Part shown: in pieces, positions 40,811-54,075 of the stretch
How the letters are laid out: every line of letters starts with the position of its first letter
Position numbering within the stretch: the first letter of the stretch is position 1
Origin: a virus
Virus record (IMG/VR): IMGVR_UViG_3300021142_000007
Coordinates: 1-64,000 of that record
Direction: 5' to 3' (one strand)
DNA: 64,000 nt
Notes under the pieces: model-generated
What the model was told of the DNA's origin: nothing
The model's database searches: none
The model's input: only the letters and a program-made list of their open reading frames with translations
Translations under genes and position numbers: made by a program

Positions 40811-40900
40811 GCCCCCTATATAGGCGTGGTACGGGGGGGTATGTAAGGGGGGTAACGGGGGGAGGGGTACGTAGGGGGGTCTAACGGGGGGAGGGGTTAT
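40811..40900 (+). other. Poly-G tract with G-quadruplex potential; candidate origin or terminus
   Basis: Seven runs of 4-7 G; TAACGGGGGGAGGGGT occurs twice. Confidence 0.65.
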
Positions 40901-40972
40901 TCATAGGACAAAGATAAAAAAAGCCCCTCACATTTGCAAGGGGCTTTTTGTTAAAGAATGTTAAAAAACATA

Positions 40973-41854
40973 TTAGTTAAGATTCTCATACACAAGCTGG
41001 TGGGCAGTTGTGTTTAGTTCGTTCGCCCTCGCATATAGGATTTTTTCCATATCTCCGCTTGCTATGTCGTGGGTCGTATACCTTGTAACGCCTTGCAATA
41101 AGCTAAACATATTCGCGCCTGTATTTTGCACTTCGATAGCCACCGCGCCATTTATAGCGTCTATAATGTTTCTTTTACGCGAAGTCAATTCGCTGTATTG
41201 GGCTACATTATAGCCTGTTAACTCGGTTATGAAGCTATCTATCTGTTTTTGCGTTACTGCCTTTAGAGACGCTGTATTGAGCAAATTTACATAGTTTTCA
41301 GTTTCGGCTACTACCTTTAAAATTTCGTTGGTAAAAGTTAGCAAACGGGCCTGGTTATTGGTCGTGTTTTTCATAGCTATATCCACATCTTTTTTCCAGT
41401 TTTTAGCACCGTTCGCGCACCATAGACGCAGGGCGTAGAAGCCTAGTGACATTTTGGTCTTACCGTCAAAGCCTGTGCGAAATTCGAGGGCTGTTTCGAG
41501 GGTATCACCTACCATAGGCGATTGTATTTCATATTTTTTTAATGGGAGGCGAAATACTACCTTTGACCCCTTTTGGTATTCGTTGTATGTTAATTTAGAC
41601 AGGTCAACATCTATACCTGAAGCTAATACGCTATTTTCGATAGCGTCCAGAAAAAGGGACAAATCGGTAGGCTCAAAAACGTCCCCCACCACGCCCAAAC
41701 AGTCCCCGCCTGTGTGCTTATATATACCGTAGCTTTTAGGGCTGTTAAAGCCTTCTAAGCCTGTATGTAGCTGTATTTTTTTAGCGTTAAATACTTGGCT
41801 TTTGAGGTTTGCAATGTGTGAACCTTGTGTTTCAAGAAAATTGAGAATTTCCAT
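40973..41854 (-). CDS. DUF932/DUF945-like phage-plasmid protein
   Basis: LGVVGDVFEP, GFDG, RLWCANG and LLQGVTRYTTH motifs. Confidence 0.75.
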   Translation of the reverse strand: MEILNFLETQGSHIANLKSQVFNAKKIQLHTGLEGFNSPKSYGIYKHTGGDCLGVVGDVFEPTDLSLFLDAIENSVLASGIDVDLSKLTYNEYQKGSKVVFRLPLKKYEIQSPMVGDTLETALEFRTGFDGKTKMSLGFYALRLWCANGAKNWKKDVDIAMKNTTNNQARLLTFTNEILKVVAETENYVNLLNTASLKAVTQKQIDSFITELTGYNVAQYSELTSRKRNIIDAINGAVAIEVQNTGANMFSLLQGVTRYTTHDIASGDMEKILYARANELNTTAHQLVYENLN

Positions 41855-42000
41855 TGTTGTGTGTTTTTTTTTGATTAATTAATGATGCGAATGTAAGTAA
41901 ATTAATTTAATTATGCAAGTCCTATCTTAATTAATTTCGTTTTAATTTACTTTTTAACATATTAGTAATTTAACATATATGTTAATTTTTTTATTTATAT

Positions 42001-42056
42001 GTATAGACGTAGTGGAGTATACCTCCCGACCCTTAGTGTCGTCCCGTCTGAATGAC
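42001..42056 (-). ncRNA. Putative structured small RNA, copy A
   Basis: Follows TATCTTTG promoter; hairpins CGAC/GTCG and GGAG-GTATA-CTCC; no ORF. Confidence 0.6.
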
Positions 42057-42123
42057 AATACAAAGATAAAAAAAAGGCTTGGATTTCCAAACCTTTTTTT
42101 GTTAATAGATGTTAATTTTTATC

Positions 42124-42642
42124 TTAGCCAAACATTACGGTAACTCCACATTTGATATGTTTGATATTGTCCATTTTAACGGTACGTACAATTATTGCCT
42201 CGTCTGTGCCTTGATTGGTCGGTGCTGTTGTTTTGGGTCTGAATTGCTTTATAGTGGCAATTTCGCTCTCGCTTGCTTCTATACCATCTATGTAGTATTT
42301 CAGTGTCTCGGACGTATTACAAGCAAATAGCAAATATAATTCTGTCGGGTCGCTTTTTTTGGCTACTATCGAACCGTTAAAGCTATCATTTACCTTTTGG
42401 AACCAATTTTCTTTAGCTGTGAAGTTAGCTTCTTTGCCCTCTTTAGCTAGTCTGTTGTTTACCATGTTAGCATAGTTAGCATTTAGAAGCATATTATAGC
42501 TAACTAGCTTGGTCACTTTTGACTTTGCGAAAGGATTGCCAGTTTTAAGTTGTTTTTGTTCAACTTCGGCTATCATTTGAGCGAATTTCGCTGAACCGCC
42601 ATCATTAATAAGTGTCTCGATTACTTGTGTTTTGTTGTTCAT
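42124..42642 (-). CDS. Conserved hypothetical phage protein
   Basis: 172-aa ORF with own promoter. Confidence 0.75.
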   Translation of the reverse strand: MNNKTQVIETLINDGGSAKFAQMIAEVEQKQLKTGNPFAKSKVTKLVSYNMLLNANYANMVNNRLAKEGKEANFTAKENWFQKVNDSFNGSIVAKKSDPTELYLLFACNTSETLKYYIDGIEASESEIATIKQFRPKTTAPTNQGTDEAIIVRTVKMDNIKHIKCGVTVMFG

Positions 42643-42719
42643 AACAGTGTGTTTTGATTGATTAATGATACAAATATAGGTTAATTAAATTAGAATAGCA
42701 AATTTTATTTGTTAAAAAA

Positions 42720-42995
42720 TCAAAGATTTTTGATAAATTGCTTTATCTTATCATATTCTTTTTTTCCATAATAAAAGACTACCGTTTTATCTTCGTGTAG
42801 CTTGCTTTTATAGCTGTGGCTATCTTCGATAGCTTGTGCTATATTTGCGCTCGTAGTACGTACATAAACGCCTGTTTGAGTACGTACCAATATAGTGCTA
42901 TGTGTGAGGGTATCTCTGCTTATTATTGTCGGTGCTGTGGCGTAGCTTGTTATTGATACAAGTATTAAAGTTAGTGTTAATAGTGTGTTTTTCAT
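42720..42995 (-). CDS. Small secreted protein
   Basis: Signal peptide MKNTLLTLTLILVSITSYA. Confidence 0.65.
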   Translation of the reverse strand: MKNTLLTLTLILVSITSYATAPTIISRDTLTHSTILVRTQTGVYVRTTSANIAQAIEDSHSYKSKLHEDKTVVFYYGKKEYDKIKQFIKNL

Positions 42996-43104
42996 TTCGT
43001 TTGATTGATAGGGCAAAGATAGTAATTTAAAATTACCAAACAAGTCCCTTAACATTTTTAACATATTAGCTATTTAATATATATGTTAATTTTTTTATGT
43101 ATAT

Positions 43105-43157
43105 GTATAGGCGTGTCGGAGTATACCTCCCGCTTCGCAGCGTCCCGTCTGATTGAC
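43105..43157 (-). ncRNA. Putative structured small RNA, copy B
   Basis: Follows TATATTTG; CGCT-GCGA-AGCG and GGAG-GTATA-CTCC hairpins. Confidence 0.6.
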
Positions 43158-43222
43158 AATACAAATATAAAAAAAGGATTTGGAATTACCAAATCCTTTT
43201 TGTTAATAGATGTTAAAAGACC

Positions 43223-43453
43223 TTATTTATTTGCATTGCGGTAGTGATAGTGTTTTTGTTTAATATGTGGCGTTGCATAGGGAGTTTTTGAGAAACGACC
43301 ACTAAAAAGACTTTCGTGTCCATGTACCAATTTTGCGCCATGTCCTCCATTTGAGTAACATGGAGATTCTTTGGTATGTGCTGAAGCAGATAGGGCAATG
43401 AGAGACAGAACAACTACCAATACGAAGATTTTTACCAATACTAAATTTTTCAT
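43223..43453 (-). CDS. Small secreted His-rich protein
   Basis: Signal peptide ending in ASA; own promoter. Confidence 0.6.
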   Translation of the reverse strand: MKNLVLVKIFVLVVVLSLIALSASAHTKESPCYSNGGHGAKLVHGHESLFSGRFSKTPYATPHIKQKHYHYRNANK

Positions 43454-43516
43454 TTGTGTGTTTTTTTTGAGTGATTAATAGGACAAAGATAGTAATTAAT
43501 TTGATACTTGCAAGGA

Positions 43517-43687
43517 CTAATTTGTTAATTTTTTAGGTCTATAACCTACTGAGTATACCGTACCATGATTTATACACATACGAAGATGTTTCCATATCTT
43601 CGTTTGTTTTGGACGTTTACAAGTTTGTGCCCCTACAATATTTTCTTTGCTCTTATTTGTTTCGTAGTAATAAAATTCGTATACCAT
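43517..43687 (-). CDS. Small protein not in the ORF track (MVYEFYYYETNK..., 56 aa)
   Basis: Hand translation; own promoter near 43711. Confidence 0.55.
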   Translation of the reverse strand: MVYEFYYYETNKSKENIVGAQTCKRPKQTKIWKHLRMCINHGTVYSVGYRPKKLTN

Positions 43688-43801
43688 GATGTGTGTTTTG
43701 ATTGATAGGACAAATATAAATAAAGTAATTTAAACCACCAAATAATATTTGTTAAAAAAAAGGACTACTTTCGTAGTCCTTTCTTAACCTATAAACACAC
43801 A

Positions 43802-44026
43802 CTATTTTACTTTGGTGCCATCCCATGTGCCGTATGCTTTAGCGTATGGATTACCACCTGAATATTTTTCAAATACCTTTATAACCGTGCCTTGTGGCAA
43901 GTCTGAATTTAGTTCATATCTACCACCACCGCCAAACATGGAGTAGTTTGTGCCGTATACCTTTTGTTTAGCAGTTAATGCTTCATTGATTGCTTTTTTA
44001 CTTTTAGCTTGTACGTAGATTTCCAT
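43802..44026 (-). CDS. Hypothetical protein
   Basis: Own promoter and downstream hairpin. Confidence 0.7.
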   Translation of the reverse strand: MEIYVQAKSKKAINEALTAKQKVYGTNYSMFGGGGRYELNSDLPQGTVIKVFEKYSGGNPYAKAYGTWDGTKVK

Positions 44027-44105
44027 TGTGTGTTATTTTTTGATTGATTAATGATACAAAGATAATGCTTTTTTTGAGACTTGCAAGTAATTTTTTGTTA
44101 AAAAT

Positions 44106-44315
44106 TTACATATGGTGACTATACTTGTTAATTAATGCTTTTGCTTCAGATATGAACGAAAGTCTGTCAATAGTTGTTTCGCATAAGCTACCATGTGTTT
44201 CTTCTTCGTATTGGACGCGCTTATCCGCTAGTTTATCTAATTTGTTAAGCCTATCCAAAATAAGGCTCATTTCCTTTGCCATCTTTAGTCTTAGTTGTGG
44301 TTCTTTGTTTGTCAT
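44106..44315 (-). CDS. Hypothetical protein
   Basis: ATG downstream of a promoter cassette. Confidence 0.65.
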   Translation of the reverse strand: MTNKEPQLRLKMAKEMSLILDRLNKLDKLADKRVQYEEETHGSLCETTIDRLSFISEAKALINKYSHHM

Positions 44316-44366
44316 GTGTGTTTTGATTGATAGGGCAAAGATACTAATTAAATTCATATTTCCAAA

Positions 44367-44567
44367 TTAATTTGTTGCTAATTTGAAGATTATTTTTTGC
44401 ACCTTTTTATGTCCTGAATGATAGCTGTCTCCGAATAGGCTTTTACCCATAAATGAGTCCCCTTTTATATTATTGCCTGAGACGGTCTTCATTTCGTCAT
44501 TATGTAGAATTGTGTCGCCAGCTTGGATATTTGAGATGTGTGTTTCTAGTATGCTATAATTGTACAT
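44367..44567 (-). CDS. Hypothetical protein
   Basis: HISNIQAGDTI...SLFGDSY; own promoter. Confidence 0.65.
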   Translation of the reverse strand: MYNYSILETHISNIQAGDTILHNDEMKTVSGNNIKGDSFMGKSLFGDSYHSGHKKVQKIIFKLATN

Positions 44568-44695
44568 GATTGATTGATTTGATAGGGCAAAGATACTAAT
44601 TAAATTCATATTTCCAAATTAAAATGAATTTATTTTTTTTTAAGATAAATTGTTAAATACTTTGGTAGTCTCAAATAAATAGCTATCTTTGTTGG

Positions 44696-44751
44696 GTCAT
44701 TCAGACAGGAGGTCGTCACCGACTTGAGGTAGACTCCGTCACGTCCCTATA
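44696..44751 (+). ncRNA. Putative structured small RNA, diverged copy D
   Basis: Follows TTTG...TATCTTTG; GGTCG-TCAC-CGACT and GAG-GTAGA-CTC hairpins. Confidence 0.55.
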
Positions 44752-44845
44752 TAAGGTAATTTTTAAATTTGTTAAAAAGTGTTAATTGGTTTGGTTTTTA
44801 AATTAATTAATTTATCTTTGCCCTATCAATCAAAACACATAATAT

Positions 44846-44986
44846 ATGAGCAAAGCACAAAAGAAGACGATGAAAGCGGTTTATCAAGTCCATATCGGGA
44901 TGAATGTCCTAGATGAGCATGGTATGTATAACTATGACCGAGCGAAGCGTAGAGCGAAATCCTATCATTACTGGAGGTCTAAATAA
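44846..44986 (+). CDS. Small basic protein (MSKAQKKTMK..., 46 aa)
   Basis: Hand translation; own TATCTTTG promoter at 44813. Confidence 0.55.
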   Translation: MSKAQKKTMKAVYQVHIGMNVLDEHGMYNYDRAKRRAKSYHYWRSK

Positions 44987-45047
44987 CTTCAAAAAAAGTG
45001 GGGCTACTATTTGGTAGTCCCATTTCTTTTTCATATATTTGCATTAT

Positions 45048-45179
45048 AATCGGGTGGCGAAATTGGTAGACGCACATAGAGTCATGGTGAAGCACTTTGT
45101 AAAAAGAAAGCCCATGTTTAAGTTTAAAGCTATCTATGATTGGTTGCAAACAATGCAGGTTCGAGTCCTGCTCCGATTA
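45048..45179 (+). tRNA. tRNA-Leu-like RNA with anticodon loop enlarged to about 52 nt
   Basis: Acceptor AATCGGG/TCCGATT; D arm GCGAAATTGGTAGACGC; stem CATAGA/TCTATG; T arm GCAGG-TTCGAGT-CCTGC. Confidence 0.7.
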
Positions 45180-45194
45180 CTTAAATCAATCAAT

Positions 45195-45332
45195 ATGTTA
45201 CTACTAGGTAAAAACCCAGAGATAACAGCTATCTTTGATTGTCAGCTTCAGTACTATATCGTTTATAAGAATGGTCAGGTATTGGTCAGTCACAAGTATC
45301 GCTACCGAGACATCGAGAGTTATCTTAATTAA
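45195..45332 (+). CDS. Small protein (MLLLGKNPE..., 45 aa)
   Basis: ATG after AATCAATCAAT leader; followed by terminator at ~45337-45365. Confidence 0.55.
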   Translation: MLLLGKNPEITAIFDCQLQYYIVYKNGQVLVSHKYRYRDIESYLN

Positions 45333-45421
45333 AATGAAAAGGCCCGAATTTCTTCGGGCTTTTTTGTTTGATATCTAGCCGAGCCTTCGCTGTCCGAGGT
45401 CGGTGTACACAATTGTGTATA

Positions 45422-45568
45422 CTAGGGCATTGGGAAGAAATGAAGGAGCAGACCGAATACTATTATGGTGCCAGTTGCACCGATTATAAGACCTACATTG
45501 AAGCCTTCGTTTAAGCCTTGTCTGTGGGCTTTTTCTATTTGTTGTTTGTAGATTGAATTTGTTTGCAT
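45422..45568 (-). CDS. Small membrane protein (48 aa)
   Basis: Hand translation; VGLIIGATGTIIVFGLLLHFF segment. Confidence 0.5.
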   Translation of the reverse strand: MQTNSIYKQQIEKAHRQGLNEGFNVGLIIGATGTIIVFGLLLHFFPMP

Positions 45569-45813
45569 GATTATTTTTTAAAGATAAACGGATAATAGAT
45601 GAATTTATACCAATAGACCTTAATCCAAGTCTTGATATTAACGTATCTCTCTATGAGCAATTGTCTTACACCTTTCCATCCTTTGGTGTTCTGTCTTTTA
45701 TAGTCTTGAATAAATGTGTTCATCTTAATTTATTTTTTTGTGAATAACTAAAAATATCAGTCTTCCATATAAGACCCCGATTGCTAGGCATATAAACCAA
45801 TATAGTAGTTCTA

Positions 45814-46056
45814 TCATGATTTATGAGTGTAGTAATTAGTGATTTCAACGAAGTTCTCCATAGAAGAGATGAATTCTGTTTTGATACGTAGAACGTCTTT
45901 TGGCGACTCTGATATACGATTATACTGCATAATAACAGGCAGTTGTGTTTGAGCGTCAATAATGACTATGAGGTCTTGACCAGCTTCTTTAGCGTTTTTA
46001 GCCTCGCGGTACATCATGTGTATGTTCAACTTAATGAACTCAAGTATTCTTTTCAT
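45814..46056 (-). CDS. Hypothetical protein
   Basis: Own promoter near 46076. Confidence 0.65.
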   Translation of the reverse strand: MKRILEFIKLNIHMMYREAKNAKEAGQDLIVIIDAQTQLPVIMQYNRISESPKDVLRIKTEFISSMENFVEITNYYTHKS

Positions 46057-46109
46057 GTTTGATTGATTTATGGTACAAATATAATACTTTTTTTGGTATC
46101 TCCAAATTC

Positions 46110-46310
46110 TTAGTCAGGTATTTTTTCAAATATTTCACCCAGTGATTTATAACCAAACATGTGGTTCAACCATAGATTACCAAAGACCCCACCATTATCA
46201 CCAACGAATCTAACTTGTGTTTCTTTGATAGATACGTCATAGACCTTATTTCGGCTGAGGATGCCAGCTTGTATTGGCAGTTCGTTTTTTGCTATGTATT
46301 TTACTTTCAT
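46110..46310 (-). CDS. Hypothetical protein
   Basis: Own promoter. Confidence 0.6.
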   Translation of the reverse strand: MKVKYIAKNELPIQAGILSRNKVYDVSIKETQVRFVGDNGGVFGNLWLNHMFGYKSLGEIFEKIPD

Positions 46311-46535
46311 GGTACAAATATAAGCATAAAAAACGAAACCCCCAAATTTCTTTGAGAGTTTCGTTCCTTTTTTATTACTATAATTTCAATGCTTATGACA
46401 AGATGTTTTATTTCATACCTTATAGAGTTTTGGGGTTAATTAATACTTATAAATTTTAACATTAATTCTCTTGATATTCCAGTTACTTATTTACTGGGAC
46501 TGCCTTTGTTTCGTGCCATTTTTCAGAGTTGTGAG

Positions 46536-46727
46536 TTAATTACTTTGTGCGAAGCTAAACGGATATGCTTTCTTGCCTTTGAGATTGCATACGCGGATGA
46601 AGGACTTGACCCTTTCGTCAGTGCCTTTGATGTACATGGTATTCGTACCACCTGAATAGCTTGCGTTTACACCGTATGCTTGCGCTGAAGCTTGCAGTGC
46701 TTTTTTTGGGCTTGTTGTTGTTAACAT
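46536..46727 (-). CDS. Hypothetical protein
   Basis: Own promoter. Confidence 0.65.
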   Translation of the reverse strand: MLTTTSPKKALQASAQAYGVNASYSGGTNTMYIKGTDERVKSFIRVCNLKGKKAYPFSFAQSN

Positions 46728-46794
46728 GATTTATTGTTTTTTGATTAATGATACAAAGATAAGACTTATTTTCGTATTTCCAAATCTTTATTTC

Positions 46795-47079
46795 TTAAAA
46801 GTTTGAATAAGTGTGTATGAAGCTTTCAACCATGATTCTTTCTTTTACCGACTCATATACGATTTCACCGCTAAATGATTCAGGTATTAGATATGAATCA
46901 AACATATTAACCATATCATCACCTATTTTTGCGGCATCATCTTCTGAATCACACATGATGATTGCATCTACACGATGCACCAAAGCTTTTTCACCTTCGG
47001 GTTTAGAGAATAGCTTCAATTCTTTTTCATCGAAATGGTGGAAGGTAATGTTTCCGAGGATTAGCAGTACTTTTTTCAT
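46795..47079 (-). CDS. Hypothetical protein
   Basis: Own promoter. Confidence 0.65.
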   Translation of the reverse strand: MKKVLLILGNITFHHFDEKELKLFSKPEGEKALVHRVDAIIMCDSEDDAAKIGDDMVNMFDSYLIPESFSGEIVYESVKERIMVESFIHTYSNF

Positions 47080-47122
47080 GATTGATTATTTTGTTAGGAC
47101 AAAGATAAGAATATTATCCGAA

Positions 47123-47434
47123 TTACCAATAAAGATTGATAGGAAATTTTACCTTGCTTTTGACCCATTTGAGTATTTCGTCAGCGTAGTAGCTTGTAGT
47201 TTCTTCGCACAGGTAGTCCAGCAATGCTCTTTCAGCCTTGCCACTATTATTGTCAGGGTTGATGGTTACTTCGATACGATGAACTTCTTTGGCTTTGCTT
47301 TGGTCGCTGTTTTTATTTGTGCCAGCTGATACGTCCCATAGCTTGCTGATTATGGTTACTTTGTTTTTGGTAGTTATTGCGGTGATAACTCCATTCTTTG
47401 CGTATTCGCCAATCTTGAATGTTTTGGTTGCCAT
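47123..47434 (-). CDS. Hypothetical protein
   Basis: TFKIGEY...TSYYADEILKWVKS; own promoter. Confidence 0.7.
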   Translation of the reverse strand: MATKTFKIGEYAKNGVITAITTKNKVTIISKLWDVSAGTNKNSDQSKAKEVHRIEVTINPDNNSGKAERALLDYLCEETTSYYADEILKWVKSKVKFPINLYW

Positions 47435-47470
47435 GATATGTGTTTTTGATTAATGATACAAAGATAAGAC

Positions 47471-47971
47471 TTATTTTCGTATTTCCAAGTCTTTTAGCTT
47501 ATTTTTTAGCAAATTCCAAAATAATTCATGGTCTTTCGCATTGAAGGAGAATATTTCGATTATAAAACAATTTATATTCGTATACTTCTCAAGGTTAGAA
47601 ATAACATCTAACCGATACTTATTTCTTAATTCATTTGGAGTCTTTCGCTTGTATTGACTAGCAGTCAGATACTCAAGGTTACCACTTATGTAGTTTTCTT
47701 TTAATACATCGATTATCTCTCCGAGCGTTTCCATTATTGCTTTGAAAGACTCTTTGGTATAGGTAAAGTGTAGATAACTTACGTTATCCCTTAGTAGATT
47801 TTCGCTACGCTTTGATAAGATGGTCTGTAGATTTGGATTGGCATTTATGGCATCCAATACCTCTAGCAAACCTTCATCTAGGTCCCAATCCTTATCGGTG
47901 AATTTCTTTGCCTTGTCCAATTCAGCCATATAATAGGTTTTGCTAGTGGCTGTCAGATATATCTCTTTCAT
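47471..47971 (-). CDS. Hypothetical protein
   Basis: 166-aa ORF. Confidence 0.65.
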   Translation of the reverse strand: MKEIYLTATSKTYYMAELDKAKKFTDKDWDLDEGLLEVLDAINANPNLQTILSKRSENLLRDNVSYLHFTYTKESFKAIMETLGEIIDVLKENYISGNLEYLTASQYKRKTPNELRNKYRLDVISNLEKYTNINCFIIEIFSFNAKDHELFWNLLKNKLKDLEIRK

Positions 47972-47972
47972 A

Positions 47973-48299
47973 TTATAGTTGTTCAGGTAGATAAGAAAAT
48001 ATGTATCCGTTCTCTTCGATAGCTAGGTCTACTATATCCTTTGCTTTTTGTTTTGCTTTATCTATAAAGCGTTTAAGGATAGGTTCTTGTTCCTCATAAT
48101 TAAAACCTATTGCTGTTAGGGTTCTTTTAAACTCAATTTGTGTTCTCATGTAGTATGTGACCAAATCTAATATTGCTTGTTCCTTTTCTTCTATTCGACA
48201 ACAAAGAACATCGTCAAATTCTATGTCATTACCAATGGTTATGAACTTGTGGCTTGTTGAACGGATGCTTACTTTTGTGTTTGCTATTCCCAGTATCAT
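47973..48299 (-). CDS. Hypothetical protein
   Basis: Own promoter near 48324. Confidence 0.65.
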   Translation of the reverse strand: MILGIANTKVSIRSTSHKFITIGNDIEFDDVLCCRIEEKEQAILDLVTYYMRTQIEFKRTLTAIGFNYEEQEPILKRFIDKAKQKAKDIVDLAIEENGYIFSYLPEQL

Positions 48300-48423
48300 T
48301 GTATTTGTTTTTGATTGATAGGACAAAGATAAGACTTATTTTCGTATTTCCAAATCCTAGCACAACTTTTTTTAAATAAAAAAGGAGGTACAAGTACCTC
48401 CCTTCTTAACAATCAATAAAACA

Positions 48424-49101
48424 CTAGCTTTCAGCTACAAGTAGCTCTATATATTCTTTTTCTGTCAGATGTCGTGGTGCTGTCAGAGGTTCATACTTTC
48501 CTTTCGGCTTTATGAGTATGCAGTCTCCCTGTCTTAGTACCTCTTTAATATGACCCTTCGGCACGTTGGTCTGTATCGTCCATGCAATAGCTTGTATTGC
48601 AGTTATCGGACAATCACTTAGACTATAAAACCACCTATCTTCATTTGTGGTATATACGCTTGCAGGGTCAACCCAAATAAAGTAGGTTCTATCTGTCGAA
48701 GTATCTTTGCACTTCACATAGTAGCAGTCTCTCATTGTCTGCCATGAATCCAAGCCTTCGTTGAAGTACGACCCATCTACTTCGTAGAGTTCGTATATAT
48801 CGTTGAACTTATGTTCGACCCTTTCGCCCTTTTCGTTCACCCAGTTAGTTGTCTTTTCGATGTTTTGGCGACTGATTAGTCTCGGCTTTACTTCATTTAC
48901 GAGACGTTCCAAGCCCAAGCATACTACGCCTACCCTTCTTTGTTCAAGGTTTGGTAGCCTTGCTATTTCTTTGAAGGTCAAAGGCTTGATACTATCCCAA
49001 GTATCTTTTAGTTCAGGAAAAGGACACTCGCTGTTTTTTAGCTTCAATAAACGACTTCCTATTTCGTGTGGAAACTTTTGGCTGTTTACAATGATATTCA
49101 T
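48424..49101 (-). CDS. Conserved phage protein, DUF6745-like
   Basis: NLEQRRV, VKCKDTSTDRTYFIWV, AIQAIAWT and RQGD motifs. Confidence 0.65.
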   Translation of the reverse strand: MNIIVNSQKFPHEIGSRLLKLKNSECPFPELKDTWDSIKPLTFKEIARLPNLEQRRVGVVCLGLERLVNEVKPRLISRQNIEKTTNWVNEKGERVEHKFNDIYELYEVDGSYFNEGLDSWQTMRDCYYVKCKDTSTDRTYFIWVDPASVYTTNEDRWFYSLSDCPITAIQAIAWTIQTNVPKGHIKEVLRQGDCILIKPKGKYEPLTAPRHLTEKEYIELLVAES

Positions 49102-49171
49102 TTATATGTTTTTTATGTTAGGCAAAGATAAGGAAGTATTCGGAATTTCCAAATACTTCCATGATTTTTTT

Positions 49172-49795
49172 TTAGTCGCTTTCTTTATAAACGTAGCCTT
49201 GTTTGCTAACGCTTATGGTCAACATATTGTCAGATAACTTAATATCTCCTTCGCCTGTGGTGAAGGTGAACCACCCACCTGATTCATCTTCAATCGCTTT
49301 TAGGCAGAAACCTTCGGCTGTGTCTCTTATTTTATCCACTATGCTTTTGGCTCTTGCTTCGTCTTCATCGGTTATAATGAAGTCATGCTTATATAGCACC
49401 GCTTCGTTATCATCATCACCGTTTATGTTTCGGATATGATTAGCCACAAATTCAGCTTCTTCTTTCGATAGTTCTACGGTAGTGTCTTCGGTGAAGGTTT
49501 CGCTAAATTCAGATGTAGCATCCTTGCTAAAGGACAGGTCATCTTCGTCCAATTCGATTGTAACCACACCGTTTTCGCCTATGTAGTGTCCATCTGAATT
49601 TACATAGAAGTCTACCTTGTCATAGATTACTTCATTTATGTATTCATCTATTTCAGGTACTTGTATTTCTTCTCCATCCTTATTGAGGATTGTAATGTCT
49701 GTATCGCCCATGCTATCACCACCGCAGTCAAAAGTGAAGTCTACGTGGTCTACGTTTTTTTCTTTCCAAAGACTGATTATTTCTTCTTTACGCAT
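49172..49795 (-). CDS. Acidic conserved phage protein, DUF6878-like
   Basis: FDCGGDS motif. Confidence 0.6.
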   Translation of the reverse strand: MRKEEIISLWKEKNVDHVDFTFDCGGDSMGDTDITILNKDGEEIQVPEIDEYINEVIYDKVDFYVNSDGHYIGENGVVTIELDEDDLSFSKDATSEFSETFTEDTTVELSKEEAEFVANHIRNINGDDDNEAVLYKHDFIITDEDEARAKSIVDKIRDTAEGFCLKAIEDESGGWFTFTTGEGDIKLSDNMLTISVSKQGYVYKESD

Positions 49796-49953
49796 TTTCT
49801 TGTTTTAATTTATGATGCAAATTTATGTAAATAAAATTAAACCACCAAATTTATTTGCTTATTTTTTAAATTATTTTCTAACTCAGGTACGAATCTTATT
49901 CTAAAATCTTGACTTTTACACAAAAATAATATATTTATTGTAAAAACAAAATT

Positions 49954-50739
49954 ATGGATACAAAAATTTGCAATAAGTGTAATCTGGATAAGCCAGTCAA
50001 TGAGTATTATAAAGACAAAACAAAAAAAGATGGTTTAGCTTCTTTTTGTATTGAATGTAAAAAACGTAGCGGTAAATTGTCATATGAAAAAAATGCTGAG
50101 AAAAGAATAGCAAAAGCTAAACAATATCGTGAGCAAAATAGAGATAAAGTAAACAAAAAAAATAAGCTCTATTATCTTAAAAATAAACAAACTTTTTCTG
50201 AAAAATCCAAAATTTATCGTGAGGCAAATTCAGATAATATAAAGAAGATGAGTAAACAATACTATGAAGAAAATAAGCATAAGGTACTGGAGCGTTATTT
50301 TAAAAATAGAGAAAACGAATTAAAAAGAATGAAAGATTGGAAAAAAGACAATCGAAAAAGACTAGCAGAGTATCAAAGAAACTATTATCAATCTCGAAAG
50401 AAAAAAGACCCATTGTTTAAATTAACTCTAAACATTAGAGGGTTAATAAGATTATCAATTAAAAATAAAGGGTTAAAGAAAAACTCTAAAACCTCTGATA
50501 TACTTGGCTGTTCGTTTGAAGAATTTAAAATCTATTTAGAATCTAAGTTTGAGTCTTGGATGAATTGGGATAACTATGGGCTTTATAACGGGGAGCCAAA
50601 CTATGGTTGGGATATTGACCATATAATACCTTTAGCTACTGCCTTAAAGGAAGAAGACTTGCTAAGTTTAAACCACTACACTAATCTTCAACCATTATGT
50701 AGTTATTTGAACAGAGACGTTAAAAAAGATAATTATTGA
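49954..50739 (+). mobile_element. Free-standing HNH homing endonuclease-like gene
   Basis: CNKC...CIEC; LGCSFEEF...WMNWDNYG...WDIDHIIP...HYTNLQPL; antisense to its neighbours and AT-richer. Confidence 0.85.
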
Positions 50740-51134
50740 ACATTCTCTTTTAATTTCTCTTTAAATTCTTTTGCTGTTTCATATGCTTCAGGGTTATCTA
50801 AAGGTTTTACTCCGTTACACATCCAAGGTTGCACTTGCATATGTTTTAGATAATCCTGCGGTGTTGGTATGAAGGTTCTGAAGTCTTCAAGAATATGTAG
50901 CATTGCTATATCTACCGTATCAACGCTACGACCATCTGAATTTACTATGTTGTAGCCAAATACCTTTGGTATGATATTATATGCAAACCAAGTATTATGT
51001 GTCAGGAAACGTGAAGTATTGTTGTTCATTGCACCCTTAGGACTATCAAGTAGTTCATGAAGTTGTAGGTAGTCTTCGGGCTTACCACCCCAACGCTTAA
51101 CGCTTGACTTTGAATGTAAGTATGGATTTGCCAT
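50733..51134 (-). CDS. Conserved phage protein, DUF6915-like
   Basis: HSKSSVKRWGGKPEDY...HILED...IPTPQDYL. Confidence 0.75.
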   Translation of the reverse strand: MANPYLHSKSSVKRWGGKPEDYLQLHELLDSPKGAMNNNTSRFLTHNTWFAYNIIPKVFGYNIVNSDGRSVDTVDIAMLHILEDFRTFIPTPQDYLKHMQVQPWMCNGVKPLDNPEAYETAKEFKEKLKENVQ

Positions 51135-51201
51135 GTTTGATTGATTGATAGGACAAAGATACAAAAAGTATTTGAATTTGCAAGAACTAATTTGTTAAAA
51201 A

Positions 51202-51462
51202 TTAATCCCAAACTTGGCTAATGCTACCCTCAAAAGGATTGTATTCTACTTGCTTTCCTAGTACATAGTTTCCTTTTTTTACGAAAAGAGCCATGTGTTC
51301 AGCTTGCGAACCATCAGGCTTTTCGTGCTTTAGTATGCTATCTTCGTTCACCTTTATAGGTGCGAAGTCAGCAGGTTTCTCGTCTACGGTCAGGCTTCCA
51401 TAAAGGGTATGTTGGTGCGAACCTTCGCCTTTAAGTAGGATTTGTCTTTTTGTTTTTGGCAT
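51202..51462 (-). CDS. Conserved phage protein
   Basis: LKGEGSHQH...EH...QVEYNP pattern. Confidence 0.7.
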   Translation of the reverse strand: MPKTKRQILLKGEGSHQHTLYGSLTVDEKPADFAPIKVNEDSILKHEKPDGSQAEHMALFVKKGNYVLGKQVEYNPFEGSISQVWD

Positions 51463-51514
51463 GAGTATTTTATTTATGATGCAAATATACTAATTAATTT
51501 TGAAAAAACAAATC

Positions 51515-51697
51515 TTATTCGATTTCTTTTATTTCCATTATATCAACATCAGCACCGTATTGTTTTGATAGCACTGGCGCAATCGTTGAATTAAATTCAT
51601 TTCTTGCCATTTCTTCATCACTGGCTTTAACCGTTACATTTCCTGTGGTGAACCCTTCATCACAATGATAATTGAACCTTATATTAAACTTTTTCAT
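51515..51697 (-). CDS. Hypothetical protein
   Basis: Start at MKKFNIRF after promoter near 51715. Confidence 0.6.
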   Translation of the reverse strand: MKKFNIRFNYHCDEGFTTGNVTVKASDEEMARNEFNSTIAPVLSKQYGADVDIMEIKEIE

Positions 51698-51814
51698 GTT
51701 GGTTTCTTTTAATGCAAATCTATGAATAAATATCCGAAAAAACAAGCATTTACCTAAATAAAAATAATTTGTTAAATGCTTGGTGAATTCAAGTCTTTTG
51801 CTTATGTTTGTTTT

Positions 51815-51868
51815 GTCATTCAGACGGGACGCTGCAAAGCGGGAGGTATACTCCACTACGTCCCTATA
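51815..51868 (+). ncRNA. Putative structured small RNA, copy C
   Basis: Follows TATGTTTG; CGCT-GCAA-AGCG and GGAG-GTATA-CTCC hairpins. Confidence 0.6.
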
Positions 51869-51938
51869 TTAAATACTACATAAAATAAAAAAGGGGGCAA
51901 GGATGCCCCCGCGAACCCTAGGCGGTTCGGTTAATCAA

Positions 51939-52133
51939 TCAAAATTTATCAGTAATGGCTTTCGCCTTGAGGTCTGTTAGTTTTTTCTCAGCAATTGCTA
52001 TGACCATACTAGAAGCGACTTTAACGTCTATTTCATTTTCGTATGCTATTTGTGCCAGAAGGTCGGCGCATTTACCTATGTTAGATAACTTAGTTATGTT
52101 ATCCATTTCTTCTTGTGTTAATTTGTTTACCAT
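51939..52133 (-). CDS. Hypothetical protein
   Basis: Own promoter. Confidence 0.6.
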   Translation of the reverse strand: MVNKLTQEEMDNITKLSNIGKCADLLAQIAYENEIDVKVASSMVIAIAEKKLTDLKAKAITDKF

Positions 52134-52207
52134 GATATGTGTGTTTTGATTAATGATACAAAGATAATAAAAGGTTTGGAAATTCCAAACCTTTTATCAT
52201 ATTTTTT

Positions 52208-54003: not shown

Positions 54004-54075
54004 TACCGCGTAGGGAATTCGAATCCCTGACTTCTCCGTGAAAGGGAGACGACTTAACCACTTGTCGAACGCGGC
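54004..54075 (-). tRNA. tRNA-Glu (TTC), CCA not encoded
   Basis: GCCGCGT/ACGCGGT acceptor; TCTCC-CTTTCAC-GGAGA anticodon arm; AGGGA-TTCGAAT-TCCCT T arm. Confidence 0.92.

What the first reader, a model, noticed from the sequence alone, without database searches (positions are those of the whole stretch)
42001..51868. Four promoter-driven copies of an unassigned structured ~55-nt non-coding element
Seen: copies at 42001-42056(-), 43105-43157(-), 44696-44751(+) and 51815-51868(+). They share GTCAWTCAGACRGGA-[hairpin 1]-GAGGTAKACTCC-N3-ACGYC(CC)TATA. Hairpin 1 changes sequence but keeps pairing: CGAC/GTCG, CGCT-GCGA-AGCG, CGCT-GCAA-AGCG and GGTCG/CGACT, two of them with GNRA tetraloops. Hairpin 2 keeps a GTAKA loop. 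Each copy starts about 5 nt after its own TAnnTTTG promoter and has no ORF. Each is GC-rich in an AT-rich genome. Inference: a multicopy early small-RNA family, possibly a defence-protein decoy, an antitoxin mimic or a replication primer RNA. I recognise no known family.
Basis: partly seen in the sequence, partly recalled or inferred. Interest (0 to 1): 0.88.

Follow-up and report, generated by a model that had tools for sequence, protein, structure and literature searches.

The report
Multicopy small RNA genes of Bacteroidota phages
The four repeats are real, self-promoted genes for a short folded RNA that matches no catalogued family and recurs, often in several copies, in many uncultured lake phages of Bacteroidota; what the RNA does is still unknown.

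Summary
All four copies are at the stated places (4 hits against 0.26 expected). A fifth lies just past the window end, at G000:64690-64746.

Each copy starts 4 nt after a TAnnTTTG box. That places +1 on its first G.

The RNA has three hairpins:
- P0 sits at the 5' end.
- P1 varies in sequence but always pairs.
- P2 is invariant, GGAG-GUAKA-CUCC, followed by a C-rich tail.

Covariation supports P0 and P1 in 31 distinct sequences from about 30 viral or metagenome contigs.

There is no match in Rfam, in one genome each of 185,579 prokaryote species, or in GenBank phages.

In 10 of 29 copies the RNA faces the 3' end of the next gene, and several have a terminator. It is therefore a stand-alone small RNA gene, not only a leader.

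A DUF932 gene is its neighbour in four lineages.

Function is unproven. My best guess is a trans-acting RNA recognised through P2 and the tail. Decoy, antitoxin-mimic and primer roles are untested.

Earlier agents of this scan described what is probably the same family on other DNA.

The parts
41997..42056 (-). Copy c1 of the small RNA. P0 GUCAUUCAGAC, J GGGA, P1 CGAC-ACUAAGG-GUCG, P2 GGAG-GUAUA-CUCC, tail ACUACGUCUAUAC.
   Evidence: (63.4 bits, E 7e-16)
42061..42100 (-). Promoter box TATCTTTG (42068-42061), preceded by a terminator-like hairpin (42100-42069) that also carries the -33 TTTG. Together they form a PeSL-like cassette ahead of c1.
43101..43157 (-). Copy c2. P1 CGCU-GCGA-AGCG, tail GACACGCCUAUAC.
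   Evidence: (75.5 bits)
43162..43201 (-). Promoter box TATATTTG (43169-43162) and terminator-like hairpin (43201-43171) ahead of c2.
44684..44754 (+). Promoter box TATCTTTG (44684-44691) and copy c3 (44696-44754). P1 GGUCG-UCAC-CGACU, P2 loop GUAGA.
   Evidence: (59.1 bits)
51803..51871 (+). Promoter box TATGTTTG (51803-51810) and copy c4. P0 51815-51825, J 51826-51829, P1 51830-51841 (CGCU-GCAA-AGCG), P2 51842-51854, tail 51855-51869. It lies on the strand opposite to both flanking genes.
   Evidence: 74.4 bits
51893..51910 (-). GC hairpin with a T run on the - strand. It is the terminator of the convergent gene 51939-52133(-) and lies 22 nt beyond the end listed for c4 (51871), so it may also stop c4.
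40973..41854 (-). DUF932 gene (293 aa), 149 nt downstream of c1 on the same strand. It is the recurrent neighbour of this RNA in four lineages.
   Evidence: (PF06067)

Best explanation
These are stand-alone genes for a small non-coding RNA of roughly 60-110 nt. The host sigma-A polymerase transcribes them from strong early-type promoters of a T4-like phage of Bacteroidota.

The RNA starts with a 5'-terminal hairpin (P0). A short purine junction (GGGA) follows, then a hairpin of free sequence (P1). P1 abuts, with no unpaired base between them, the invariant hairpin P2 (GGAG-GUAKA-CUCC), whose loop fits the G-N-R-(N)-A pentaloop pattern. A C-rich tail (RACCUAC, or ACUAC in this phage) ends the conserved part.

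Shown: the copies, their promoters, the covarying P0 and P1, the invariance of P2 and tail, the stand-alone gene contexts, and the restriction to viral contigs.

Inferred: P0 and P1 serve as structural or protective scaffolding. P2 plus tail is the working part. It is read sequence-specifically in trans by a partner that is most likely a protein, of the phage or of the host, so that abundant early RNA binds or titrates that partner. The partner is not identified.
For: 1. Copies and promoters. Four copies plus a fifth. TAnnTTTG ends 4 nt upstream. In Flavobacterium psychrophilum that box lies at -12 to -5 (PMC9723704, passage read), so +1 falls on the first G of P0.

2. Structure.
- In 31 distinct sequences, 92.0% of cells pair against 86.2% in shuffles (0 of 500 reach it). 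Covariation score is 0.159 against 0.070 (0 of 500). Slid controls give 37-51%.
- P0 pair 3 is CG in 23 and UA in 7.
- P1 has 21 distinct sequences, and 29 of 31 fold as a closed hairpin.
- In L125 both closing pairs change from CG/CG to AA/UU.
- An independent MAFFT plus RNAalifold run on 18 sequences recovers P0, P1 and part of P2, with 5 of 9 pairs changed on both sides.

3. P2. The only changes are G to A in the 5' strand. The 3' strand ACUCC never changes, and the loop varies only at its 4th base, U or G.

4. Stand-alone status.
- The nearest downstream ORF is on the opposite strand in 9 of 29 copies. c4 makes 10, because the - strand ORF 51939-52133 has its own promoter and terminator.
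- Terminator-like hairpins or U runs follow L057:848, L057:223, L073:2884 and the L060/L052 group.
- One copy (L127) lacks P1 but keeps P2 and tail.

5. Distribution. Records held 1 to 7 copies at E <= 0.1. The RNA was found only in viral or metagenome contigs. Bacterial genomes gave 0 hits and then 6 chance-like hits.
Against: - No transcript data exist, so the 3' ends and even expression are inferred.
- c1, c2, c3 and c5 have no recognisable terminator before the next promoter. In this phage read-through into the next gene cannot be excluded.
- No partner protein was found. The WYL_2 (Sm-like) neighbour occurs in only 1 of 5 records. The DUF932 model (pLDDT 76.7) matches no solved fold.
- P2 does not covary, so its pairing rests on sequence complementarity alone. 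Its invariance would equally fit base-pairing with a conserved nucleic-acid target.
- A5 was fitted to the model, which biases pair counts. One search is the unbiased check, and it uses 18 of the 31 distinct sequences plus 3 found later.
Confidence: 0.4

Rival explanations
1. A cis-acting leader element of the nut/put type. The nascent hairpins, with P2 acting like boxB, would modify the transcribing polymerase or stabilise the 5' end of the downstream mRNA.
For: The element starts at +1 of a promoter. Two hairpins directly abut. The P2 loop GUAKA fits the G-N-R-(N)-A pattern of lambda boxB, which varies at the same 4th loop position (recalled knowledge). Copies point outwards from about 44.65 kb. 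c1, c2, c3 and c5 are followed by co-oriented genes with no clear terminator in between.
Against: 10 of 29 copies face the 3' end of the next gene and have nothing to antiterminate. Several are followed at once by terminators or U runs. Every downstream gene has its own promoter. A 94%-complete 253-kb phage has a single copy. No boxA-like word or N-like gene was identified.
Confidence: 0.13
2. A base-pairing regulatory RNA whose conserved P2 3' strand and tail pair with an mRNA, for instance that of the neighbouring DUF932 gene.
For: DUF932 lies within 200 nt of a copy in four lineages: window c1, L050, L061 and L073, where two copies bracket it. In this phage the segment ACUCC plus tail of c1, c2 and c4 pairs with codons 51-58 of DUF932 mRNA at -24 to -27 kcal/mol, reached by 0-1% of 200 shuffles. 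This was also the best non-self site in a scan of the whole record.
Against: The complementarity is absent in the five other lineages tested; 24-84% of shuffles do as well there. The target stretch is G-rich and pairs through G-U. 8 of 11 DUF932 loci fetched from viral contigs have no copy within 2.5 kb. The three copies tested (c1, c2, c4) are paralogues, not independent trials.
Confidence: 0.15
3. A DNA-level element: either a mobile promoter/terminator cassette that drives modular shuffling (PeSL-like), or a promoter-primed R-loop replication origin.
For: The upstream half is a terminator hairpin fused to a strong promoter, as in PeSLs (PMC2839356, abstract read). Gene content between copies differs from the near-identical relative L033: the c2-c3 gap is 531 nt shorter there and the c3-c4 gap 2,373 nt shorter. 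Some genes are bracketed by inverted copies. AT-rich palindromic DNA follows c1, c2 and c5.
Against: Compensatory changes in P0 and P1 across distant phages point to selection on a folded single strand. The transcribed part, not the promoter, is what is conserved between lineages. The AT-rich stretch is explained by the upstream half of the next promoter (TGTTAA and TTTGG words).
Confidence: 0.1
4. A small ligand-binding or catalytic RNA, meaning an aptamer 'sponge' or a ribozyme.
For: Invariant junction, loop and tail bases sit around helices of free sequence. High copy number and strong promoters would suit a titrating role.
Against: No match to any riboswitch or ribozyme model, even at E up to 10. 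One helix and junction are lost in L127. There is no tested ligand and no cleavage evidence.
Confidence: 0.05

Closest known systems
Lambda-type nut sites (boxA + boxB) and HK022 put RNA
   Same: Short structured RNA right after early promoters. Several copies per genome point in diverging directions. The hairpin loop fits the GNR(N)A pentaloop pattern and varies at the 4th base (pattern seen; the boxB comparison is recalled). Two hairpins abut, as in put.
   Different: A third of the copies have no downstream gene in their direction. No boxA and no N-like protein were found. The P2 stem sequence is invariant. Copy number ranges from 1 to 7.
PeSL (promoter-early stem-loop) cassettes of T4-type phages (Arbiol et al. 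2010, PMC2839356; abstract read)
   Same: A T4-like phage (TerL and major head hits). A region of small non-essential genes. Repeated strong promoter plus stem-loop terminator units. Gene content differs between close relatives at these units.
   Different: Here a conserved, covarying RNA of about 55 nt is transcribed from the cassette promoter, and it is shared by distant phages. PeSLs as described are promoter plus terminator only.
RNA anti-CRISPRs / solitary repeat units (Racr; Camara-Wilpert et al. 2023, PMC10651486; abstract read)
   Same: Solitary, promoter-driven small hairpin RNAs in phage genomes. The GUAUA pentaloop also occurs in the type I-F repeat hairpin (recalled).
   Different: No CRISPR repeat resembling it was found. 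The strict pattern gave 0 hits in one genome of each of 185,579 species. The P2 13-mer occurs at most once per genome in 21 of 401 Bacteroidota genomes, against 12 hits for the reversed control.
FopS / GibS multicopy small RNAs of Bacteroides (Rfam RF04319)
   Same: Paralogous small RNAs with sigma-A promoters in Bacteroidota.
   Different: No model match at any copy. The only RF04319 hit in 41900-44900 is at 43752-43798(-), scoring 24.5 bits against a gathering score of 56. Those RNAs are host-encoded, whereas this one was found only in phage contigs.

Membership tests
Any Rfam 15 family | cmscan score at or above the family's gathering score | tested here: not met
   The whole window gives only tRNA-Glu at 54004-54075. 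At E up to 10 over 41900-44900 nothing matches the element itself; the weak STnc40 and SpF03 hits sit on the terminator hairpin. 14 related loci and 6 genome loci give only a tRNA and a TPP riboswitch elsewhere.
Lambda nut / N antitermination | The site lies in the transcript of an operon whose downstream terminators are to be read through | tested here: not met
   10 of 29 copies are convergent with the next gene.
Lambda nut / N antitermination | boxB hairpin with a GNRA-like pentaloop | tested here: inconclusive
   The loop GUAUA/GUAGA fits G-N-R-(N)-A by sequence. The fold itself was not tested.
Lambda nut / N antitermination | boxA word and an N-like arginine-rich protein | not tested
HK022 put | Two adjacent stem-loops just after the promoter, acting in cis on the polymerase | tested here: inconclusive
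   The adjacency of P1 and P2 is met. Cis action is not testable here and is unlikely for the orphan copies.
PeSL cassettes | Strong sigma-70-type promoter joined to a stem-loop terminator, repeated in a hyperplastic region | tested here: met
   Hairpins at 42100-42069 and 43201-43171 are followed at once by TATCTTTG or TATATTTG. There are 37 promoter-consensus hits against 5.8 expected. The conserved RNA downstream is not part of the PeSL definition.
Racr / solitary CRISPR repeat unit | Sequence and hairpin mimic a CRISPR repeat of a host | tested here: not met
   The test was limited to exact-word searches.
FopS/GibS small RNAs | Match to the RF04319 covariance model | tested here: not met
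Type III antitoxin RNA (ToxI-like) mimic | Tandem short repeats beside, or mimicking those beside, an endoribonuclease toxin gene | tested here: not met
   The copies are dispersed, 1.1 to 13 kb apart, and not tandem. Host toxin loci were not searched.
Promoter-primed (R-loop) replication origin, T4 oriF/oriG type | Promoter followed by an AT-rich unwinding element, with the RNA used as primer | tested here: inconclusive
   AT-rich DNA follows c1, c2, c3 and c5, but it is also the upstream half of the next promoter. Priming is not testable here.

The most novel reading that the evidence does not exclude
The RNA is one half of an undescribed phage RNA-protein module built around DUF932 and other small 'early island' genes. 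Copies that bracket a gene would either control it or form a complex with its product. Alternatively, the abundant RNA could be a decoy that titrates a host defence or RNA-processing protein through the invariant pentaloop hairpin. Either case would be a new class of phage counter-defence or takeover RNA, specific to Bacteroidota phages.
Probability: 0.2. Interest if true: 0.85.

Novelty: new variant of a known kind. Interest (0 to 1): 0.62.

Why it matters
Small RNAs of phages that infect Bacteroidota are almost unexplored. That phylum lacks Hfq and ProQ and does not use Shine-Dalgarno pairing (recalled knowledge).

This is a well-supported, widespread and uncatalogued RNA family. It has a clear architecture, strong promoters and variable copy number. 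It also has a recurrent gene neighbour of unknown function, DUF932, a family that tblastn here also found in crAss-like phages and actinophages; its presence on plasmids is recalled.

Identifying its partner would give a function to both the RNA and perhaps DUF932. The covariance model built here could annotate the RNA in metagenomes.

Tried and rejected
- Rfam at gathering and at E up to 10 found nothing at the copies.

- GenBank phages:
  - Megablast of 41000-46000 gave no match.
  - blastn with two copies gave only chance hits at E about 7-8.

- Cultured relative:
  - The closest cultured TerL hit from Bacteroidota is Flavobacterium phage immuto.
  - Its whole record has no R2 hit (best E 0.385) and no hit to a loose promoter-hairpin pattern.
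  - The 'lab-grown phage' named in earlier scan notes could therefore not be identified.

- Bacterial genomes:
  - The strict pattern gave 0 hits.
  - The looser pattern gave 6 loci, all in GC-rich, coding-looking sequence with R2 scores of 10-23 bits. I judged them chance.

- Chance matches dropped before counting:
  - 24 of 25 loci (seen).
  - 8 of 12.
  - L058 and L067, i.e. 2 of 26.

- Host RNA mimic or target: the P2 13-mer is at chance level in 401 Bacteroidota genomes.

- Closing helix GGGAC/GUCCC: it forms in the folds of c4 and, in part, c1. It is absent in c2, c3 and the other lineages, so I rejected it.

- Pseudoknot between the P2 loop and the tail (GUA/UAC): the loop variant GUAGA shares its tails with GUAUA, so there is no covariation and no support.

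- Partner proteins:
  - WYL_2 occurs in 1 of 5 records.
  - The DUF932 fold search found no match at E <= 0.001.
  - Other neighbours are DUF6011, GP88 and DUF6576 or have no family, and none is an evident RNA binder.

- No RNA holder was listed among 24 sequencing runs, and read laying was not used.

- Literature: searches (listings only) found no paper on this RNA or on a function for DUF932. One search was rejected for a bad term and not repeated.

- Supplementary files were not consulted. The promoter tables of PMC9723704 could refine the +1 spacing.

- The first genome-wide duplex scan timed out. It was repeated with two copies and a coarser step.

Full report
**Observation**

The 15-nt 5' word hits four places and no others in the window: 42042-42056(-), 43143-43157(-), 44696-44710(+) and 51815-51829(+). 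The shuffle expectation is 0.26. The hairpin-2 word is exact only at those four places.

The window is the first 64 kb of a 135,399-base IMG/VR virus record, estimated 36% complete, and the 5' word occurs nowhere else in it. A covariance model built from the copies found a fifth, more diverged copy at G000:64690-64746(+), 690 bases past the window end.

**The phage**

It is T4-like: major head, portal and large terminase PHROG hits, and TerL hits to T4-type phages. It uses Bacteroidota-type promoters.

An extended consensus, TAnnTTTG-N5-TCAATCA, occurs 37 times against 5.8 expected. Nearly all sites lie on the - strand between 40.9 and 64 kb, ahead of small genes. Many of these promoters are fused to a terminator-like hairpin that also supplies the -33 TTTG.

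**Start point**

In all five copies TAnnTTTG ends 4 nt before the first G. In Flavobacterium psychrophilum the sigma-A box lies at -12 to -5 (PMC9723704, passage read). Transcription should therefore start at that G.

**Relatives**

Pattern scans gave the following.

| Scan | Collection | Loci returned | Loci judged real |
|---|---|---|---|
| | viral contigs | 25 | 1 (L022) |
| | metagenome contigs | 12 | 4: L030 and L033 near-identical phages, L034 and L036 distant |
| (5' word dropped) | viral contigs | 26 | 24 |
| (P2 plus tail) | viral contigs | 25 | all previously seen or new members; 5 new loci |

With model R2, 49 hits at E <= 0.01 in 30 sources gave 31 distinct sequences.

Copy number per record at E <= 0.1:

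| Record | Size | Copies |
|---|---|---|
| 94%-complete phage | 253 kb | 1 |
| Second large phage | 217 kb | 1 |
| Fragment | 124 kb | 3 |
| Fragment | 87 kb | 4 |
| Fragment | 64 kb | 7 |

Nothing credible was found elsewhere:
- One genome each of 185,579 prokaryote species gave 0 hits, then 6 chance-like hits in coding-looking DNA.
- GenBank phages gave nothing.
- The closest cultured Bacteroidota relative by TerL, Flavobacterium phage immuto, gave nothing.

**Structure**

The common architecture is P0, J, P1, P2 and tail.
- P0 has three closing pairs or more: GUC...GAC, GUUAUC...GAUAAC, GUUGA...UCAAC.
- J is GGGA, with variants GUGA, GAGA, AAGA and AGGA.
- P1 is a hairpin of 4-8 pairs, closed by C-G and G-C.
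- P2 follows P1 with no unpaired base between them and reads GGAG-GUAKA-CUCC.
- The tail is RACCUAC, or ACUAC in this phage.

On the model-fitted alignment A5:
- 92.0% of cells pair, against 86.2% in shuffles (0 of 500 reach it) and 37-51% when partners are slid.
- The covariation score is 0.159 against 0.070 (0 of 500).
- Five pairs change on both sides.

Further support:
- P1 has 21 distinct sequences, and 29 of 31 give a closed hairpin as the minimum-energy fold.
- L125 swaps both closing pairs to A-U.
- L127 lacks P1 altogether but keeps P2 and tail.
- MAFFT plus RNAalifold on 18 sequences, not fitted to my model, recovers P0, P1 and part of P2.

P2 does not covary. Its 3' strand never changes, its 5' strand shows only G to A, and its loop varies only at the 4th base. 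That loop fits the G-N-R-(N)-A pentaloop pattern known from lambda boxB and the type I-F CRISPR repeat hairpin; this comparison is recalled and not tested here.

**Coding excluded**

P1 lengths differ by non-multiples of three while the flanks are identical.

**Gene or leader?**

I oriented 29 copies and called the flanking ORFs.
- In 9, the nearest downstream ORF is on the opposite strand.
- c4 is a tenth. The - strand ORF 51939-52133 has its own promoter (52147-52166) and terminator (51910-51893).
- In L057 one copy is followed by a U9 run. Another shares a clear bidirectional terminator with the gene it faces.
- L073:2884 is followed by a hairpin plus U run.
- The L060/L052 group has an AU-rich hairpin plus U run 10-45 nt after the tail.

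These copies cannot be leaders, so the family is best read as stand-alone small RNA genes.

In this phage c1, c2, c3 and c5 have no recognisable terminator before the next promoter. Read-through here remains possible.

**Neighbours**

- A DUF932-like protein of about 300 aa lies within 200 nt of a copy in four lineages: window c1, L050, L061 and L073, where two inverted copies bracket it.
- A DUF6011 protein is likewise bracketed in L057.
- The link is not general for DUF932. Of 11 DUF932 loci fetched from viral contigs, 3 have an R2 hit within 2.5 kb, and L115 carries a second, weak one.
- The DUF932 model (pLDDT 76.7) matches no solved structure.
- A WYL_2 (Sm-like) neighbour occurs in only 1 of 5 records.

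**A lineage-specific lead**

A duplex scan of the whole record with c1 and c4 gave codons 51-58 of the DUF932 mRNA as the best non-self site. The segment ACUCC plus tail of c1, c2 and c4 pairs there at -24 to -27 kcal/mol, reached by 0-1% of shuffles.

The five other lineages show nothing comparable. I treat this as an unconfirmed lead.

**Comparison with known systems**

- It works most like a phage small RNA with a protein-recognition hairpin. It is not a member of any Rfam family.
- It shares its promoter-terminator housing with the PeSL cassettes of T4-type phages (PMC2839356, abstract).
- It shares a promoter-proximal pentaloop hairpin with nut sites. The orphan copies argue against antitermination.
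- It is not a CRISPR-repeat mimic by the tests possible here (PMC10651486, abstract).

**Earlier notes of this scan**

These notes describe multicopy, promoter-driven small RNAs of T4-like Bacteroidota phages that bracket DUF932. That is very probably the same family.

I had found the fifth copy and the DUF932 link before reading them. I could not compare sequences.

**Verdict**

- The interpretation as a multicopy small-RNA family is supported.
- The specific roles proposed are untested.
- The function is open. My committed guess is a trans-acting RNA read through P2 and the tail by a protein partner (confidence 0.4).

Noticed in passing
window 40811-40916 (-), and L115 downstream of its DUF932 gene: Directly after the DUF932 terminator sits a TATCTTTG promoter, followed by about 90 nt of C-run-rich sequence with no ORF (poly-G on the + strand). 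A similar promoter plus C-rich stretch follows the DUF932 gene of L115. It contains CCUCCC words complementary to the GGGAGG of the small RNA.
   Followed up: partly
window 40900-64000, mostly - strand: An extended promoter consensus TATCTTTG-N5-TCAATCA gives 37 hits against 5.8 expected. It is often fused to a terminator hairpin that carries the -33 TTTG, a PeSL-like design. The near-identical relative L033 has 531 and 2,373 fewer bases between copies.
   Followed up: partly
window 41696-41707 (DUF932 codons 51-58) against c1, c2 and c4: There are 12-14 contiguous pairs, with G-U, between the P2 3' strand plus tail and the DUF932 mRNA. This is seen only in this lineage.
   Followed up: partly
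window 45155-45171: A T-arm-like hairpin (GCAGGTTCGAGTCCTGC on the + strand) appears where neither ARAGORN nor Rfam calls a tRNA. Another first-stage note reads a tRNA-Leu-like RNA with an insert here.
   Followed up: no
L049 1560-2322 (G000 64749-65511): About 350 nt of non-coding DNA and then a 139-aa ORF follow copy c5. The same layout and a conserved block TTGACTTTTGTG...CACATATTTATAG occur after copies in L061 and L079. The ORF has no Pfam or PHROG hit. By eye it carries an H-N-H-like motif, which was not tested.
   Followed up: partly
L127 3778-3816: A family member that lacks hairpin P1 entirely but keeps P0, P2 and the tail.
   Followed up: no
window 49954-50739 (+): A 261-aa ORF with endonuclease VII / endonuclease PHROG hits (E 1.4e-15), oriented against its neighbours in the small-gene region. 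It is a likely free-standing homing endonuclease.
   Followed up: no
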